Part shown: positions 2,758 through 8,758 of the stretch, one piece after another
Numbering within the stretch: position 1 is the stretch's first letter
How the letters are laid out: each line of letters begins with the position of its first letter
Source of the DNA: Giardia intestinalis
Taxonomy: Eukaryota
Assembly (NCBI GenBank): GCA_000002435.2
Contig: CM018793.1
Direction: 5' to 3' (one strand)
Length of the DNA: 64,000 nucleotides
The notes under the pieces: model-generated
The model's database searches: none
The model's input: only the letters and a program-made list of their open reading frames with translations
What the model was told of the DNA's origin: nothing
Position numbers and translations under genes: made by a program

Positions 2758-3552
2758 CTAGTCATAGGCTGGCCTATATACTGCACTTCTAATGGACGCA
2801 CTGTTCATGTACTTCGGTCGCGTTTCCCGCTTTCTGACGTCATCGAGGCCTCCCTGCACGTCCCACATATCTGTGTATCTAGCCCAGTTGCTCACAGGAT
2901 CAGACTTTCTGAGCTTCTTCTCCTTGAGTGTATACTTACTAGTGCCAGAGTTAAACATGGCAGACTTGGCGGCAGGATCATAAGGGTCCGTCCCATCCGA
3001 TCGGTACCTTTGTGACATTTGTGTGCTCTGTCGATAAAACGGTTGGCCATATCCGCTACTCTGGCCCATGGGTCGTGCAGAGTTGGTTTTGCGGGAGAGG
3101 CGCATATTGCTGTAAGAGTCTCCACTGACTGGCCTCTGCTTGTAGTATCCACTTGATGGCTTACTATCCTCGTGAGGGTCGTAGTACTCATCATATTCAT
3201 TTATATCTTGCCGGTGCATTTTTCGTTGAGGAGCAGGAGCCGTCCGTGGCTGCTCCGGCATGTGCGCAGACACGTAACCTCTATCGTGAGTTAAAGGCTG
3301 CGGGTGCAACTCGTCCTGAGGCGAATCCTCCTCAGCCTCGGGACTATGTCTGCGCTGCTTTCTACGGCGGTGTCTAATGGGGGCTTCCTCGTGATCGTCT
3401 TCGTAGTCTTGTTCTGTGTCTCTCATTCCACTGGCCATACGACGCAGCAACTCGCCCTTCAGCTGCAGAAGAGTTTCCTCTGGAACTCCTTGATAGCCAA
3501 GGTCGGCGAGATACTCCTGTATGCGGTCTAAAGAGAGCTCCGACGAGTCCAT
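2758..3552 (-). CDS. Hypothetical protein, 264 aa, charged and low-complexity.
   Basis: ATG-initiated ORF (cat at 3550-3552). It is divergent from ICMT across a 67-bp A/T-rich spacer. No recognisable domain. Confidence 0.45.
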   Translation of the reverse strand: MDSSELSLDRIQEYLADLGYQGVPEETLLQLKGELLRRMASGMRDTEQDYEDDHEEAPIRHRRRKQRRHSPEAEEDSPQDELHPQPLTHDRGYVSAHMPEQPRTAPAPQRKMHRQDINEYDEYYDPHEDSKPSSGYYKQRPVSGDSYSNMRLSRKTNSARPMGQSSGYGQPFYRQSTQMSQRYRSDGTDPYDPAAKSAMFNSGTSKYTLKEKKLRKSDPVSNWARYTDMWDVQGGLDDVRKRETRPKYMNSASIRSAVYRPAYD

Positions 3553-3619: not shown

Positions 3620-4267
3620 ATGCAAAAAATATTGTATCTCCATTCTGCTGAAATGCTCGTGGAATCCATTCCCACTCTCAGAGTTTTCACACTAGCGGGA
3701 TCTCTTATCTTGTACCACGCTCTAGATTTTTCTCTCCACAATAGACACCATCCGCAGCCCATCAGCTTCGCTGCTTGCCTCTGTTCTACGGAGTATGTGG
3801 CAGCATTTGCATTCGCCCTCACAGAATACTATTTAGAATACTTCTTCTGCTCATGGAAGAGGTCTAAGCCACTAGTAACTATATGCTATGTGATCGGGTT
3901 AATTGGGATGGTTCTCGGTGATGGTCTGCGCAAGCTTGCTATGATGCAGAATGGAATTGGATTCACTCACAAGATAGCCACAACCCGTGAGAAAGACCAC
4001 CAACTAGTTGTCTCAGGGGTATACCGATTGACCAGACATCCCGGATACCTTGGCTGGTTCATTTGGGCCGTTTCCACCCAAGTGATGCTCGCCAATCCAC
4101 TATCAATTATAGTTTACATTTTCGTTTCCTGGAAGTTCTTCAGTGACAGAATTAGATACGAAGAAGAAACCCTCCTTGCCTTGTTCGGAGACGAGTACTT
4201 AGAGTATATGAAGCGCACGCGGTGTTACATACCGTTTGTCTCGAGACACGCAGCTACCGCCCACTGA
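3620..4267 (+). CDS. ICMT: Protein-S-isoprenylcysteine O-methyltransferase (ICMT/Ste14 family).
   Basis: The C-terminal block VVSGVYRLTRHPGYLGWFIWAVSTQVMLANPL...RYEEETLLALFGDEYLEYMKRT matches the ICMT signature (RHPxY, EE..L...FG.EY..Y). It is a multi-TM protein with a true ATG at 3620. Confidence 0.85.
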   Translation: MQKILYLHSAEMLVESIPTLRVFTLAGSLILYHALDFSLHNRHHPQPISFAACLCSTEYVAAFAFALTEYYLEYFFCSWKRSKPLVTICYVIGLIGMVLGDGLRKLAMMQNGIGFTHKIATTREKDHQLVVSGVYRLTRHPGYLGWFIWAVSTQVMLANPLSIIVYIFVSWKFFSDRIRYEEETLLALFGDEYLEYMKRTRCYIPFVSRHAATAH

Positions 4268-6797
4268 CTTTCTTACGCCGGACCTTAAGTGTTATGGCCA
4301 CCACCAAGGTCGAGAGTTGCCGCTGGTCCACAACAAGGAAAGAGCGTGAGCTGCTATCGTATTTTAGCATAGACTCTATAATGCTCTGGGCCAGCTCATT
4401 TGGCATGTTGTCGGGCCCGTCAACCTTAATGAGACTACCGCTGAGCTCGTCAACCTTAACACATGAGTGATACGATTTACGTTCCGTATCTCTAAACACA
4501 AGAAGCAGGTGTCCACGTTCCCGAGACACGTTATCCATGGCTAACATTCTCCTTTCGTAATTTGCAGTCCCTGGGAGAAGGTTGTGGAGAATGAGTTTCT
4601 GCACAAAACTGGAGTTGTCAAACTTCGCAGGGGGCAGGTACTCTATGAAGTGCGATTCCTGCTGAACCGCAGACTTCGTTGGCCTATTGGCAACCTTGTA
4701 GACGAGCTCTGTGCCCTCGGCCCCACCTTCTTTGACACCGCTATCGCTGTCCAAATAGCTTGCTACTCCAGAGTTGGCATGTACACTAAAGCTGTTACGC
4801 CTCCCAACGTAGCTTTTAGAAGAGCCGGACTCTCTGTCAGGATTCGTCGTGCTAGAGCTAACATGGGTGTCTTGGTATGAACCTTGATATGAGCTTCCTG
4901 CTGATGACTGCTTTTCTCGAGGCCGTGCGCTTCGTCTGTTGAGATGGACGCCACGTCTGTTGCTTCCTGGCGACCCAAGTATGCTGCTGGAACTTCTCGA
5001 ATGTACCAAATCGCTCTGTTCCGCTGCCTCCTCAAGCTCACGTTGCCGCATCTGTGCACGCCGCTCCTTGAATTGCTGCACGCGTTGATTCTGAGCCTCT
5101 AACAGCTTCTGATTCCGAGCTACCGATATCTGCTTATTAGGTGCATCATCGAACATAATTTCCAAGGCAACACCTGCCCCAGCTGCTTTAGTTACCAGAC
5201 CCGCCTCGTCTTCCTCTGCTGCGGTGGTCTCTGCTGCGTTGTGTAGTGCATTGTCTTGTGTGCACTCTACTTCTGCTTTAGAAATGTTTTTCGTAGTATT
5301 GTCTATTGTTTGTTTAATGGTCCCTAGGATCATAGAATCAAGTCCTGATGAGTTGATGCTGTTCTCACCCTGGGACATTTGCTTATCAGCTCTCCCTACA
5401 CATATCTCCTCCGTGTTGGCACATGCAATTTCGCCGTCGTTTGCTGCGTTGCTACCATAATTGTTGGCGAAGCTATGAGATCTCATCAGTGATGCACTCA
5501 GGTGAGAAGCCTGAACACAGTCGTCTGAGCCATTTTCTTGGATAACAAGTTCAAGTTCTGCGGCGTGCGATATTGCATGCGGACTCAAGGAGCCATTTAG
5601 CAAAGATTCTTGCATGTCACCTAATAGGGATGTGTTGCGAGACTTGCTGCGGGAACAGTACACCTCCGAGTATGATGCATCATCACACGGAAGGCCGTGT
5701 CCTGTTGAGTTGTCTTTTGGATTATCAACCACTTCTCTCGTGGGCCTTAGCTCGTCTGCATAAGATCCAGTAATATTAGTATTATCATCCTGACCGTCCA
5801 GCTCAAGATCATCTAGGTCCTCAACATTATCCAGGTATGCTGTGTAATTATGTGCACTTGTTCCTCGCTGTCGCCTCTGGTGTCCCTCGTCAGGGTATCC
5901 GCCAAGAAAGTCACTGGGTTTGCTTACGCTAGCATGTAGGCCAGTAGTGGGGTTGAGAAAGACAGGGTCTGTGGCTCCTTGACTAATTGCAATGTAAGAC
6001 TCTACACATTCCTCAGGACTGCTAGTTGAGTGGGGGACTAACTTATCAGATAATCTATCAGATGATATTTGAGAAGATGAGTTATGTGACGTGGTCTCTT
6101 CCTTGTCAAGAGACAGGCGCTTAGCGATAGATTGCATTGTATGGATACTGCGTGCGTTACAAGGTCCACTGAGTTCATGGGTGGTAAGCCCCGTAGAAAT
6201 ATCTCCATCAAATTTGGTAGATGAGGTCAGATCTTCAAGTTTTTTCCGCAAGATGGAATTTTCAATCTGGAGGGTGTCATGTGCCTCCTGAAGGGCTGTA
6301 AATTTGCTCAGAAGATCAGCAGTAATTACTTGTTCTGTCTCCAGCTGGCCAGTCTTTTCAACCAGCTGGCGTGTCTTCTCCTTGAGCTGTGCAGTGAGCT
6401 CCTCCAGTTCCTTCTGAAGACCGTCCATAATGGCCCTATTAGTCGCACAATGCGCTGTAAGCTCTTCGTTTTCTGCCGTTAAGACAGAGATTTGCTTGTC
6501 TCTCTCATCGAGTCGCTTTTTGAGATGTTCTTCCAGCCTCGTTGTATGCAGTGGTGTTTCCGTTTTACTTGTGACTCGGGGGAGATCGGGAAGAAAGGAC
6601 GGCGTCTTCGTGGCCTGCTGACCTGGTACAGCACTGTTCTGTCGCGTTGTAAACATTCCAACGGTGCCACTTAACTCTAGCTCGTCGTAATACGCACATT
6701 CTGTTGTTTTGTTATTGCTTGCTGCAGAACCTTGGTGGGTACTCACCGCCGCTTGCACCTGTGCCTTGAGCCCACGAGGCCGTACAACCCTGGCCAT
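4254..6797 (-). CDS. Coiled-coil protein (847 aa) with a C-terminal CKK-like domain of the CAMSAP/Patronin type that binds microtubule minus ends.
   Basis: ATG at 6797. The N-terminus is coiled-coil (LEEHLKKRLDERDKQISVLTAENEELT...). The last ~120 aa (SSFVQKLILHNLLPG...HLLLVFRDTERKSYHSCVKVDELSGSLIKVDGPDNMPNELAQSIIESMLKYDSSSRSFLVV...LVVAITLKVRRKK) align block-by-block with the CAMSAP CKK consensus (NKQIIQNAI...HFLILFRD...GYGPRTVTP.MVEGIYKYNSDRKRF...SVDAFTI). No CH domain is evident. The 3' end overlaps the ICMT stop by 14 bp (convergent). Confidence 0.6.
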   Translation of the reverse strand: MARVVRPRGLKAQVQAAVSTHQGSAASNNKTTECAYYDELELSGTVGMFTTRQNSAVPGQQATKTPSFLPDLPRVTSKTETPLHTTRLEEHLKKRLDERDKQISVLTAENEELTAHCATNRAIMDGLQKELEELTAQLKEKTRQLVEKTGQLETEQVITADLLSKFTALQEAHDTLQIENSILRKKLEDLTSSTKFDGDISTGLTTHELSGPCNARSIHTMQSIAKRLSLDKEETTSHNSSSQISSDRLSDKLVPHSTSSPEECVESYIAISQGATDPVFLNPTTGLHASVSKPSDFLGGYPDEGHQRRQRGTSAHNYTAYLDNVEDLDDLELDGQDDNTNITGSYADELRPTREVVDNPKDNSTGHGLPCDDASYSEVYCSRSKSRNTSLLGDMQESLLNGSLSPHAISHAAELELVIQENGSDDCVQASHLSASLMRSHSFANNYGSNAANDGEIACANTEEICVGRADKQMSQGENSINSSGLDSMILGTIKQTIDNTTKNISKAEVECTQDNALHNAAETTAAEEDEAGLVTKAAGAGVALEIMFDDAPNKQISVARNQKLLEAQNQRVQQFKERRAQMRQRELEEAAEQSDLVHSRSSSSILGSPGSNRRGVHLNRRSARPREKQSSAGSSYQGSYQDTHVSSSTTNPDRESGSSKSYVGRRNSFSVHANSGVASYLDSDSGVKEGGAEGTELVYKVANRPTKSAVQQESHFIEYLPPAKFDNSSFVQKLILHNLLPGTANYERRMLAMDNVSRERGHLLLVFRDTERKSYHSCVKVDELSGSLIKVDGPDNMPNELAQSIIESMLKYDSSSRSFLVVDQRQLSTLVVAITLKVRRKKVSGR

Positions 6798-6879
6798 ATC
6801 TTACGAGATTTCTAAAAATTCGCTTCTTAAAATTGATATTGACTTACAAAGTATTAGAGTGGCAAGGACTAAAGTGGTA

Positions 6880-7386
6880 ATGCAAGGTACTGACAGCTCC
6901 GACCCTCTCTACTACACCAGCCCCGATCTGGCCATTGGAATTACCGGGTTCACCATACGAAACCCCAGCACAGGAAAAATCTACTTTAACCGCAACACAG
7001 CGTCGCCAGACGTTGGTCAAATAGAGCTCTTACCAGACGTTCCTCCCACAAACGGCATTTGCTACATCCTTCCTACAGAGTTCCTGCGCGCATCGGCCAT
7101 CGCATGTCAGATTGTGATTACTAACAGAGGAGATGAACCCATAAGCGGCATAAAGATAGTCGAAGAGCACATCCTTCAAGGAGTTCCTCTTCAGCGGTAC
7201 GACTTTGACCTCATGTTTCTTGCCCCTAGAACGCAGAATACATGGGAAACACTATATGAGCCTGAATTCAAGCGTGGACACAACTTCGAGGAGCAAGCCC
7301 TCGCGGGTCCGTGGATCATTATCACGTCGTTGTATATTAGTGACAAGCTGATGCTGCGCAATCGGGCACAGCTGAAGTTTCAGTGA
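6880..7386 (+). CDS. Hypothetical protein, 168 aa.
   Basis: The listed ORF begins with TTG at 6709, so I trimmed it to the first ATG at 6880, which has an 82-bp A/T-rich divergent spacer upstream. Family not recognised. Confidence 0.4.
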   Translation: MQGTDSSDPLYYTSPDLAIGITGFTIRNPSTGKIYFNRNTASPDVGQIELLPDVPPTNGICYILPTEFLRASAIACQIVITNRGDEPISGIKIVEEHILQGVPLQRYDFDLMFLAPRTQNTWETLYEPEFKRGHNFEEQALAGPWIIITSLYISDKLMLRNRAQLKFQ

Positions 7387-7620: not shown

Positions 7621-8673
7621 CTACTTTATGAAATTGTAATTCTTAAAGTCTTTACCTACTTTAATAAGAAAGGTTGTAGAATCCTCAGAGCAGCTTACCA
7701 AATCCTCACCATTGGGATTAAATGCAAGGTCGTGGACAGGCCCGACATGTGCCTGGATGCTGCCTAACTTCACGTCCTGGGCTATGTCAATAAAGAACAG
7801 CTTAAACGTGTTCTCAATATGTGTTGTTTGAGTGACTATTTTGCTGTCCATCCCTCCGGCGTAGACCATGAGATTGGGAATGTTTGGGTGGATGGCGCAA
7901 CAGTGCACCGGGTACTCTGTGCTGACCTTCTTAAGAACCGTTAGTGTCTTGGCCCCCAGTATGACTATCTTCTTATCACTGCAGCAGATAGTAAACATGG
8001 AGTTGTTATACAGTTGTATGCTCATTATCTGACCGTTCCCGACGACTATTGGGTCCTTCATCTTTGAGTACGGCTCTAGGGTCTCTGCATCAAAGAGCTG
8101 CACTACACCAGACGCGAACCCCACGACCAGGTAGTCGTCCAGGGGGGACAAAGCTATGCAAGTGACGTCTTCGGACATGCACTTTATCTTGGTGCACTTC
8201 ACATCCTTTGGGTCGCTGGCATCAAGGACAAGGATACCAGCCTTGGACTTCATGATCAACCGTCCTCCAACAAACAGGCGCCTTCCATCTCTGCTATACT
8301 GGATGGCGCTGTAGGCTGTGATTTCCGGGAATTTATAGGTCCTGATGTATGCGCGGTCACTGGTGACCTTGTAGAGAGCAATGAAGTCGAGAACATGGGA
8401 CACTGCAACGTACTCACCGTCAGAGCTCACTGTGAAGTCAGACACAGCTATACCTTGGTCAGATGCTATTGTTCCAGGGTCTCCTTCCGAGCCGATCGGT
8501 CCAAAAGTCTGGACAAACTGCCCGTTTGTACTGGTCCACATGTGTGTATAGCCGTCTGTGGACCCGGTGATGATATAATCTCCGTCGGGAGTGTATCGTA
8601 GCTTTGTAATAGGGCGTGTATGCCCATGGAGACTGAAGACATGGGCTGTGTAGACGTTGGCGACCTTTCCCAT
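7621..8673 (-). CDS. EIF3I: Translation initiation factor eIF3 subunit I (WD40, TRIP-1 family).
   Basis: WD-repeat protein. The C-terminal segment VYAGGMDSKIVTQTTHIENTFKLFFIDIAQDVKLGSIQAHVGPVHDLAFNPNGEDLVSCSEDSTTFLI parallels eIF3i ([25 protein letters not shown]...[30 protein letters not shown]). The listed start at 8688 is TTG, so I trimmed to ATG 8673, which has AATAAATTAAAAACT upstream. Confidence 0.8.
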   Translation of the reverse strand: MGKVANVYTAHVFSLHGHTRPITKLRYTPDGDYIITGSTDGYTHMWTSTNGQFVQTFGPIGSEGDPGTIASDQGIAVSDFTVSSDGEYVAVSHVLDFIALYKVTSDRAYIRTYKFPEITAYSAIQYSRDGRRLFVGGRLIMKSKAGILVLDASDPKDVKCTKIKCMSEDVTCIALSPLDDYLVVGFASGVVQLFDAETLEPYSKMKDPIVVGNGQIMSIQLYNNSMFTICCSDKKIVILGAKTLTVLKKVSTEYPVHCCAIHPNIPNLMVYAGGMDSKIVTQTTHIENTFKLFFIDIAQDVKLGSIQAHVGPVHDLAFNPNGEDLVSCSEDSTTFLIKVGKDFKNYNFIK

Positions 8674-8758
8674 CCAGACGGAGGCCAACCAAAGTTTTTA
8701 ATTTATTCAGATTCGGTAATCCTAGCTAGCTGTTCTGACTAATGGCCTTGCCTCTAAA

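What the first reader, a model, noticed from the sequence alone, without database searches (positions are those of the whole stretch)
4254..6797. C-terminal CKK-like domain of the CAMSAP/Patronin microtubule minus-end family, on a coiled-coil protein without a CH domain
The last ~120 residues align in several blocks with the CKK consensus: LLLVFRD with FLILFRD, VDGPDNMPNELAQSIIESMLKYDSSSRSF with GYGPRTVTPAMVEGIYKYNSDRKRF, and LVVAITL with SVDAFTI. CKK domains recognise microtubule minus ends. A Giardia member would be relevant to anchoring of basal-body or median-body microtubules. The N-terminus is a plain coiled coil rather than the CH domain of animal CAMSAPs.
Basis: partly seen in the sequence, partly recalled or inferred. 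Interest (0 to 1): 0.55.

Follow-up and report, generated by a model that had tools for sequence, protein, structure and literature searches.

The report
Giardia CKK-domain microtubule protein, already annotated
This Giardia gene does encode a coiled-coil protein ending in a CKK microtubule-binding domain like that of animal CAMSAP/Patronin proteins, but public databases already annotate it that way, and whether it recognises microtubule minus ends is untested and uncertain from its sequence.

Summary
Window 4254-6797 (-) is an 847-aa ORF. Its last ~125 residues pass Pfam CAMSAP_CKK (43.6 bits against a cutoff of 27, profile 7-119 of 119). They give a confident AlphaFold model whose only significant PDB matches are the nine CKK structures (rmsd 1.3-1.9 Å for ranks 2-8). 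No CH or CAMSAP_CC1 domain is present. Residues 87-191 form a real heptad coiled coil.

The protein is 100% identical to Giardia intestinalis WB XP_001705301.1, already named [quoted passage not shown]. Similarly annotated orthologs exist in G. muris and Spironucleus, and Chilomastix has one too. The domain call is therefore not new.

The functional step from CKK to minus-end recognition is weaker. The Naegleria CKK has the same fold but binds the whole lattice. All six diplomonad-type CKKs examined carry K/Q where human CAMSAP1 has N1492, whose mutation relaxes end selectivity. They carry H/Y in place of the tubulin-contacting R1535, and they have the Naegleria-type loop 3, one residue longer.

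I found no experimental study of the Giardia protein. The most likely role is a dimeric microtubule binder or stabiliser with uncertain end preference. Interest is low to moderate.

The parts
4254..6797 (-). Complete CDS, 847 aa plus TAG stop. Identical to Giardia intestinalis WB XP_001705301.1 / A8BRM3 / KAE8305978.1.
   Evidence: ORF list; 847/847 identity by BLASTP; names and accessions.
6798..6879 (.). 82-bp AT-rich divergent intergenic region shared with the PDE6-delta-like gene. It contains AAATTTTTAGAAATC just upstream of the ATG and is presumably the promoter/initiator region.
   Evidence: Sequence read directly. Promoter function is inferred and was not tested.
6648..6692 (-). Short conserved N-terminal motif YYDELELSGTVGMFT (residues 36-50) within an otherwise disordered N-terminus. 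Function unknown.
   Evidence: Invariant across four G. intestinalis assemblages and recognisable in G. muris as YFDNLNLCDSIGMFT. pLDDT <50.
6225..6539 (-). Coiled coil, residues 87-191, a likely dimerisation or oligomerisation module.
   Evidence: Single helix with pLDDT ~80. Heptad a/d LIVM fraction 0.60 vs 0.12, 0 of 2000 shuffles. 82% invariant columns among assemblages. Conserved in G. muris, E 3e-23.
5139..6224 (-). Long acidic, Ser/Thr/Asn-rich linker predicted to be disordered (residues 192-553).
   Evidence: pLDDT <50 with only short helices. 49-63% invariant columns and net charge about -32. No Pfam hit.
5001..5138 (-). Conserved charged helix, residues 554-599 (QKLLEAQNQRVQQFKERRAQMRQRELEE). 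It is not a heptad coiled coil and sits about 125 residues upstream of the CKK.
   Evidence: Helix with pLDDT 60-77. No heptad signal. 84% invariant columns. Conserved in G. muris, E 1e-8. A positionally analogous but non-significant match to an animal CAMSAP helix, E 1.7.
4653..5000 (-). Basic Ser/Arg-rich disordered linker, residues 600-715 (net charge +6). It could add electrostatic affinity for the acidic microtubule surface.
   Evidence: Composition; pLDDT <50. The microtubule role is inference only.
4287..4631 (-). CKK domain, residues 723-837 (Pfam envelope). Two helices followed by a beta-barrel.
   Evidence: Pfam PF08683, 43.6 bits, cutoff 27. PDB sequence hits to CAMSAP3 and CAMSAP1 CKK. 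AF2 model core pLDDT >90. Foldseek top 9 hits are all CKK structures, rmsd 1.3-1.9 Å for ranks 2-8. 96% invariant columns among assemblages.
4596..4598 (-). K734 codon, the position equivalent to human CAMSAP1 N1492 in helix alpha-1.
   Evidence: Numbering derived from the 6qus chain and alignment A3. The N1492A phenotype is from PMC6868217.
4467..4493 (-). Loop 3, RDTERKSYH (R769-H777). R769 corresponds to CAMSAP1 R1528 and is conserved. H777 corresponds to R1535 and is not conserved. The loop is one residue longer than in animal CKKs, as in Naegleria.
   Evidence: Roles of R1528 and R1535, and Naegleria R678/R686, are from PMC6868217 section 7.
4257..4286 (-). Strongly basic C-terminal tail KVRRKKVSGR (residues 838-847).
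   Evidence: Basic tails are present in all six diplomonad-type sequences. The CKK C-terminus contacts tubulin in the cryo-EM structures (PMC6868217). A role for the Giardia tail is inferred.

Best explanation
This is Giardia's CKK-domain protein, and apparently its only one. It is a CH-less relative of the animal CAMSAP/Patronin family that has been inherited vertically within the fornicate metamonads.

Shown here: it has a genuine CKK fold at the extreme C-terminus, a 105-residue heptad coiled coil near the N-terminus, a second conserved charged helix, and long disordered linkers.

Inferred mechanism: the coiled coil makes a parallel dimer or higher oligomer that presents two or more CKK domains. 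Each CKK wedges into the groove between two protofilaments at the intradimer tubulin junction, as solved for the human and Naegleria CKKs. The conserved FRD arginine (R769), the basic loop-3 residues R773/K774, the basic C-terminal tail and the basic Ser/Arg linker would help it bind.

The domain has Lys where CAMSAP1 has N1492, His where it has R1535, and the longer Naegleria-type loop 3. I therefore think it is more likely a microtubule binder or stabiliser with relaxed or altered end selectivity than a strict animal-type minus-end tracker. A plausible site of action is Giardia's arrays that are not attached to basal bodies, namely the ventral-disc dense-band zone and the median body. Location and end preference are both inference.
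For: - CKK identity: Pfam above the gathering score; PDB sequence hits; a confident model that matches only CKK structures at 1.3-1.9 Å.
- Purifying selection falls on exactly the modules the mechanism uses. Invariant columns among four assemblages are 96% in the CKK, 82% in the coiled coil and 84% in helix 554-599, against 46-63% in the linkers. The same two non-CKK blocks are the only ones conserved in G. muris.
- Coiled coil.
- Vertical inheritance and C-terminal placement: orthologs in G. muris, Spironucleus and Chilomastix, all with the CKK at the C-terminus. CH domains occur in only 6 of 19 relatives.
- Binding mode of the CKK, and the fact that a CKK fold can lack end preference: PMC6868217.
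- Lineage-wide substitutions at the N1492 and R1535 positions and the +1 loop 3.
- Longer CC-containing CAMSAP fragments bind and stabilise better than the CKK alone: PMC8490363.
- Disc minus ends arise from a dense-band zone of undefined composition: bioRxiv 10.1101/361105.
Against: - There is no experimental evidence for this protein. No localisation, binding or knock-down data turned up in the searchable literature.
- The structural model was built from an alignment of CKK family members, so it is not independent of the sequence homology.
- Predicting end selectivity from two residues and a loop length is weak. N1492A is an Ala substitution, not Lys, and the authors themselves note that the Naegleria CKK might recognise minus ends on its native microtubules.
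- Giardia tubulin may have co-evolved with the domain.
- From memory, not verified here: Atherton et al. 2017 reported that some protist CKKs, including one from the metamonad Trichomonas, do track minus ends.
- Dimerisation through the coiled coil is inferred.
Confidence: 0.5

Rival explanations
1. It is a full functional ortholog of CAMSAP/Patronin. The CKK selectively recognises and caps free microtubule minus ends in Giardia, for example at the ventral-disc dense bands, in the median body, or at the base of the axonemal central pair. This is essentially the first reader's reading.
For: It has a genuine CKK fold and family membership. The invariant family residues N728, G743, N746, G794, P799 and F820 and the FRD arginine R769 are kept. 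The domain is almost invariant across assemblages, which argues for a precise interaction surface. Giardia has non-basal-body minus ends whose protein composition is undefined. Mammalian CAMSAPs stabilise central-pair seeds in cilia, and the CKK alone suffices (PMC8490363).
Against: K734 replaces N1492, whose mutation reduces minus-end selectivity in human CAMSAP1. H777 replaces R1535. Loop 3 has the Naegleria-type extra residue, and the Naegleria CKK shows no end preference. These changes are shared by all six diplomonad-type sequences, while Chilomastix keeps N and R, so the diplomonad lineage has altered the tested interface.
Confidence: 0.35
2. The CKK fold is retained but has been repurposed. 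The protein does not bind microtubules in Giardia and acts as a coiled-coil scaffold for something else.
For: Outside the CKK, nothing resembles animal CAMSAPs. Two experimentally important tubulin-contact or selectivity residues are changed. No experimental data exist.
Against: Both CKK domains with microtubule-bound structures, human and Naegleria, bind microtubules in the same groove. R769, the basic loop 3 and a conserved basic tail are what an acidic tubulin surface would require. 96% invariance indicates a constrained interface.
Confidence: 0.1
3. The resemblance is due to chance, or the ORF is not a real gene.
For: None found. Sequence identity to animal CKKs is only about 20-27%.
Against: The Pfam E-value is 3.7e-11, above the curated cutoff. 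Profile-versus-PDB E-values reach 5e-50. The fold match is exclusive to CKK structures. Orthologs of 601-872 aa exist in five other fornicate lineages. The pattern of constrained modules and free linkers across assemblages is that of a coding gene.
Confidence: 0.01

Closest known systems
Animal CAMSAP1/2/3, Patronin (Drosophila) and PTRN-1 (C. elegans)
   Same: C-terminal CKK domain with the same fold (rmsd 1.3-1.7 Å to the 5lzn, 5m50 and 6qus chains) at the extreme C-terminus. Coiled-coil and helical regions lie upstream, separated by long disordered linkers. The FRD motif and the invariant N, G, N, G, P, F positions are conserved.
   Different: There is no N-terminal CH domain and no CAMSAP_CC1 region. 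No detectable similarity exists outside the CKK. K replaces N1492 and H replaces R1535, loop 3 is one residue longer, and a two-residue insertion (DNMP versus G-P) sits in the GxGP loop. At 847 aa the protein is shorter than the ~1100-1420-aa full-length animal CAMSAP-type relatives recovered here.
Naegleria gruberi CKK protein (NgCKK; PDB 6quy, 6qve)
   Same: A non-animal CKK protein with the same fold (rmsd 1.9 Å, TM 0.83). Loop 3 is one residue longer than in human: R678..R686 in Naegleria and R769..H777 in Giardia. It is the experimental precedent for a CKK that binds the lattice without minus-end preference.
   Different: NgCKK keeps an Arg at the R1535-equivalent position, whereas Giardia has His. 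NgCKK has a 34-residue insertion in loop 4 that Giardia lacks. Sequence identity is only about 15%. I could not retrieve the NgCKK residue at the N1492 position.
Fornicate orthologs: G. muris TNJ28893.1, Spironucleus salmonicida EST41499.1, accession CAL6063033.1 (probably Hexamita), Chilomastix cuspidata EP00767_P004428
   Same: The same CH-less architecture with a C-terminal CKK, 36-71% identity in the CKK, and basic C-terminal tails. The diplomonads share K/Q at the N1492 position and H/Y at the R1535 position. All except the Chilomastix entry are already annotated as 'Microtubule-binding calmodulin-regulated spectrin-associated (domain-containing) protein'.
   Different: The N-terminal regions have diverged beyond recognition outside the genus Giardia. 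Chilomastix retains the animal-type N and R.

Membership tests
CKK-domain family (Pfam PF08683, CAMSAP_CKK) | Sequence match to the CKK profile above the curated gathering score | tested here: met
   43.6 bits against a cutoff of 27, E 3.7e-11, profile positions 7-119 of 119. A profile of relatives hits the CAMSAP3 and CAMSAP1 CKK chains at E 5e-50 to 4e-40.
CKK-domain family (Pfam PF08683, CAMSAP_CKK) | CKK three-dimensional fold (two N-terminal helices packed on a beta-barrel) | tested here: met
   The AF2 model has core pLDDT >90 and elements H-H-E-E-E-E-E-E. The only Foldseek PDB matches with E<=0.001 are the nine CKK chains, at rmsd 1.3-1.9 Å for ranks 2-8. Caveat: this is a model, built from a family alignment.
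CKK-domain family (Pfam PF08683, CAMSAP_CKK) | Domain located at the extreme C-terminus of the protein | tested here: met
   Residues 723-837 of 847. The same placement is seen in all full-length relatives.
CKK-domain family (Pfam PF08683, CAMSAP_CKK) | Direct binding to microtubules at the interprotofilament, intradimer site | not testable with these tools
   This needs co-sedimentation, TIRF or cryo-EM. The binding mode is known for the human and Naegleria CKKs (PMC6868217).
Canonical CAMSAP/Patronin (animal architecture CH - CC - CKK) | N-terminal calponin-homology domain (PF11971 / PF25532) | tested here: not met
   No CH-type hit even at E<=10. Residues 1-86 are predicted disordered and are shorter than a CH domain. 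The same scan detects CH domains in 6 of 19 relatives.
Canonical CAMSAP/Patronin (animal architecture CH - CC - CKK) | CC1 spectrin/calmodulin-binding region (PF17095) or other similarity outside the CKK | tested here: not met
   No Pfam hit. BLASTP of residues 1-700 against a 1423-aa animal CAMSAP-type protein gives nothing better than E 1.7.
Canonical CAMSAP/Patronin (animal architecture CH - CC - CKK) | Coiled-coil regions upstream of the CKK | tested here: met
   Heptad coiled coil at 87-191. This is a generic feature and not homologous by sequence.
Minus-end-selective CKK (functional class defined on human CAMSAP1) | Asn at the N1492 position of helix alpha-1 (N1492A reduces end selectivity and raises lattice affinity) | tested here: not met
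   Giardia has K734. The diplomonads have K or Q, while Chilomastix and almost all animal sequences have N. Phenotype from PMC6868217.
Minus-end-selective CKK (functional class defined on human CAMSAP1) | Loop-3 arginines R1528 and R1535 with animal-type loop length | tested here: inconclusive
   The R1528 equivalent, R769, is present. The R1535 equivalent is H777. The loop is one residue longer, as in the non-selective NgCKK, but it contains the extra basic residues R773 and K774.
Minus-end-selective CKK (functional class defined on human CAMSAP1) | Preferential binding to microtubule minus ends; induction of protofilament skew | not testable with these tools
   This requires TIRF assays on dynamic microtubules and cryo-EM of decorated microtubules.

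The most novel reading that the evidence does not exclude
Diplomonads have re-tuned the CKK-tubulin interface: Lys/Gln at the N1492 selectivity position, His/Tyr at the R1535 position, a longer loop 3 and a poly-basic tail. As a result their single CH-less CKK protein would act not as a dynamic minus-end tracker but as a high-affinity interprotofilament lattice staple. It would contribute to the drug-resistant hyperstability of Giardia's ventral disc, or would organise the dense-band zone where disc microtubules originate away from basal bodies. That would be a new cellular use of the CKK module, and a natural experiment on what determines end selectivity.
Probability: 0.2. Interest if true: 0.5.

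Novelty: already known. Interest (0 to 1): 0.22.

Why it matters
The domain assignment itself adds nothing, because NCBI and UniProt already name this exact protein and its orthologs by the CKK domain. What is still open, and can now be tested, is the function.

Giardia builds very stable microtubule arrays that are not attached to basal bodies. Ventral-disc microtubules arise from a dense-band zone of undefined composition (bioRxiv 10.1101/361105). I found no study of this protein in the literature I could search. Some reviews still state that CAMSAPs are restricted to animals (PMC6678760).

The diplomonad CKK naturally varies at two positions that were mutated or structurally implicated in human CAMSAP1. 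It could therefore be a useful comparative probe of how CKK domains tell minus ends from lattice, and a candidate organiser of the disc, which Giardia uses to attach to the host.

Tried and rejected
1. Chance similarity. Rejected by the Pfam, PDB-profile and fold results.
2. A cryptic or divergent CH domain or other globular domain upstream. Rejected: there is no Pfam hit at E<=10, and the full-length AF2 model shows only two long helices. That model rests on four near-identical sequences and did not even fold the CKK, so the absence of small domains is not proven.
3. Helix 554-599 as a second coiled coil. Rejected: it has no heptad signal.
4. Homology of the non-CKK regions to animal CAMSAP or to Spironucleus. 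Nothing significant was found.
5. Searching with the CKK domain alone in the word-indexed protein database returned only one fragment. The exhaustive HMMER search and a profile search were needed instead.
6. Reading Atherton et al. 2017 (NSMB) for the phylogenetic distribution and for the protist CKKs tested. The paper is not held, so anything I say about it is from memory and marked as such.
7. An AFDB fold search to map the CKK fold across eukaryotes. That library is unavailable.
8. Literature searches by accession, locus tag, family name and Pfam id for any Giardia characterisation. None was found, and supplements of the two most relevant papers are not held.
9. I could not retrieve the Naegleria CKK sequence, so I could not read its residue at the N1492 position.
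Full report
**1. The observation**

Window 4254..6797 on the minus strand is a single uninterrupted ATG-to-TAG ORF of 847 aa (coordinates and stop codon re-checked). It is preceded by an 82-bp AT-rich divergent intergenic region.

**2. Is it a CKK domain?**

I ran both, and both came out in its favour.

(a) Pfam CAMSAP_CKK (PF08683) matches residues 723-837 over profile positions 7-119 of 119. The score is 43.6 bits for the whole protein (48.2 for the C-terminal fragment) against a curated cutoff of 27, with E 3.7e-11. A profile built from 18 CKK regions, including the Giardia one, hits the PDB CKK chains at E 5e-50 to 6e-20 and nothing else.

(b) An AlphaFold2 model of residues 695-847 was built from a 67-sequence alignment with the Giardia domain as query. 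Its core pLDDT is above 90, and its topology is two helices followed by six strands. Foldseek against 350,542 PDB chains returns nine matches with E<=0.001, and all nine are CKK structures. These include CAMSAP3 (5lzn at rmsd 1.3 Å and TM 0.89; 5m50), human CAMSAP1 (6qus at 1.5 Å; 6qvj, 5m5c, 5m54) and Naegleria CKK (6quy at 1.9 Å; 6qve). The tenth hit has E=1.3. One caveat applies: the alignment consists of CKK family members, so the model corroborates the homology but is not independent of it.

**3. What the whole protein looks like**

- No CH, CAMSAP_CH, CH_CAMSAP2_N or CAMSAP_CC1 match appears even at E<=10. The same scan finds CH domains in 6 of 19 relatives.
- A full-length AF2 run with a shallow four-sequence alignment is confident about only two elements. 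One is a 105-residue helix at 87-191 (pLDDT ~80). The other is a helix at 554-599 (pLDDT 60-77). Residues 1-86 are disordered and too short for a CH domain.
- The 87-191 helix keeps one heptad register throughout. LIVM occupy 60% of a/d positions against 12% elsewhere, a value reached by none of 2000 shuffles. The 554-599 helix has no heptad signal.
- Constraint follows this module map. Among four G. intestinalis assemblages (88%, 78% and 74% overall identity to the window protein), invariant columns are 96% in the CKK, 82% in the coiled coil, 84% in the 546-600 helix, and 46-63% in the linkers.
- Against G. muris, the only conserved non-CKK blocks are residues 36-188 (E 3e-23) and 542-601 (E 1e-8). 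The first block includes a short motif, YYDELELSGTVGMFT.
- Nothing outside the CKK is recognisably similar to Spironucleus or to an animal CAMSAP.

**4. Identity and prior knowledge**

The protein is 847/847 identical to XP_001705301.1 / KAE8305978.1 / UniProt A8BRM3 of Giardia intestinalis (duodenalis) WB. NCBI and UniProt already name it 'Microtubule-binding calmodulin-regulated spectrin-associated protein'. The P15 and GS orthologs are titled 'CKK domain-containing protein' in UniRef.

An exhaustive HMMER search of 1.84 billion representative proteins finds 22 relatives at E<=0.001. The nearest are G. muris TNJ28893.1 (71% in the domain), two unnamed diplomonad-like sequences, CAL6063033.1 (probably Hexamita; the organism name was not shown), Spironucleus salmonicida EST41499.1 and Chilomastix cuspidata. 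Most are already annotated by the same domain. All have the CKK at the C-terminus.

Only one G. intestinalis cluster appears in these searches, so the gene looks single-copy. The domain assignment is therefore already known. From memory, and not verifiable here because the paper is not held, Atherton et al. 2017 had already shown that CKK domains occur widely outside animals.

**5. From fold to function**

Atherton et al. 2019 (PMC6868217) show that the Naegleria CKK shares the fold and the interprotofilament, intradimer binding site. However, it decorates the whole lattice, has no minus-end preference and does not induce protofilament skew.

That paper also identifies three relevant features. 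N1492A in human CAMSAP1 raises lattice affinity and reduces end selectivity. The loop-3 residues R1528 and R1535 contribute significantly to microtubule affinity. NgCKK loop 3 is one residue longer, spanning R678 to R686.

I fixed the residue numbering from the 6qus chain, which is a 34-aa tag plus residues 1474-1613. Under this numbering R1528 and R1535 fall on Arg, as the paper describes. I then mapped these positions onto the domain alignment:

| CAMSAP1 position | Giardia equivalent | Status |
|---|---|---|
| N1492 | K734 | changed |
| R1528 | R769 | conserved |
| R1535 | H777 | changed |
| loop 3 (8 residues in animals) | RDTERKSYH (9 residues) | Naegleria-type length |

The changes are lineage-wide. 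All six diplomonad-type sequences have K or Q at the N1492 position and H or Y at the R1535 position. Chilomastix and nearly all animal sequences keep N and R. Diplomonad CKKs also end in a conserved poly-basic tail, KVRRKKVSGR in Giardia.

So microtubule binding is a well-supported inference, but minus-end selectivity is not. On present evidence I put strict minus-end specificity at about 0.35, and a binder or stabiliser with relaxed or altered selectivity at about 0.5.

**6. Proposed mechanism**

Shown:
- A CKK fold at the C-terminus.
- A heptad coiled coil.
- A conserved charged helix.
- Disordered linkers, acidic in the middle and basic next to the CKK.

Inferred:
- The coiled coil dimerises the protein.
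- Each CKK inserts between protofilaments at the intradimer junction.
- The basic linker and tail add electrostatic affinity. This is analogous to the finding that CC-containing CAMSAP fragments bind and stabilise better than the CKK alone (PMC8490363).

Plausible cellular targets are arrays whose minus ends are not on basal bodies. Disc microtubule minus ends arise from a dense-band nucleation zone whose composition is undefined (bioRxiv 10.1101/361105). The median body is another candidate, and so is the base of the axonemal central pair. No localisation or functional study of this protein turned up in the searchable literature.

**7. Comparison and membership**

The protein is a member of the CKK-domain family: profile, fold and C-terminal position were all tested and met. 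It is not a canonical animal-type CAMSAP/Patronin, because the CH domain and CC1 region were tested and not met. It most resembles the CH-less protist CKK proteins, of which Naegleria's is the only one with a solved structure. It shares Naegleria's longer loop 3 but lacks both its 34-residue loop-4 insert and its second loop-3 arginine.

**8. Verdict**

The finding is already recorded in public annotation, so novelty is 'already known' and interest is low to moderate (0.22). Two things remain of value. First, the protein is apparently uncharacterised in an organism with unusual non-centrosomal microtubule arrays. Second, the diplomonad lineage carries substitutions at two experimentally defined CKK positions, which makes both the function and the end-selectivity question directly testable.

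Noticed in passing
window 4467-4469, 4596-4598; alignment A3: The diplomonad-type CKK domains (Giardia, G. muris, Spironucleus, CAL6063033.1, two unnamed) all have K/Q at the human CAMSAP1 N1492 position and H/Y at the R1535 position. The fornicate Chilomastix and nearly all animal sequences keep N and R. All fornicates have a 9-residue loop 3, against 8 in animals.
   Followed up: partly
window 3620-4267 (+): The convergent downstream neighbour encodes an isoprenylcysteine carboxyl methyltransferase (Pfam ICMT, E 6.7e-28). Its last 14 nt, including the TGA stop, overlap the 3' end of the CKK gene on the opposite strand.
   Followed up: partly
window 6880-7386 (+) (mechanical ORF from 6709): The divergent upstream neighbour encodes a PDE6-delta/UNC119-type protein (Pfam GMP_PDE_delta, E 4e-18), a family known as lipid-binding chaperones. 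Its first ATG is only 82 bp from the CKK gene's ATG. From general knowledge, both neighbours of the CKK gene (ICMT and PDE6-delta-like) act on prenylated proteins. This may be coincidence.
   Followed up: no
window 7621-8688 (-): A WD40 beta-propeller ORF of 355 aa. Its best Pfam match is EIF3I (E 3.8e-39), but at 135 bits it is below that model's 200-bit cutoff, so it is probably a divergent translation initiation factor 3 subunit I.
   Followed up: no
window 2758-3552 (-): A 264-aa ORF rich in charged and low-complexity sequence, with no Pfam match at E<=0.01. Unknown function.
   Followed up: no
window 6648-6692 (-), residues 36-50: The short motif YYDELELSGTVGMFT lies in the otherwise disordered N-terminus. 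It is invariant across G. intestinalis assemblages and recognisable in G. muris (YFDNLNLCDSIGMFT). It could be a short linear interaction motif, but its function is unknown.
   Followed up: partly
literature (PMC6678760): [quoted passage not shown] The searches here recover CKK-domain proteins in Giardia, Spironucleus and Chilomastix, and the PDB holds a Naegleria CKK. That statement therefore holds only for the CH-CC-CKK architecture, not for the CKK domain.
   Followed up: partly
models m2ed960ac61ff and m3ab693a63960: Method note. With only four near-identical Giardia sequences, AlphaFold2 left the CKK region unfolded (pLDDT <50). With a 67-sequence family alignment the same residues were modelled at pLDDT >90. 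The lack of other confident domains in the full-length model is therefore weak evidence that none exist.
   Followed up: yes
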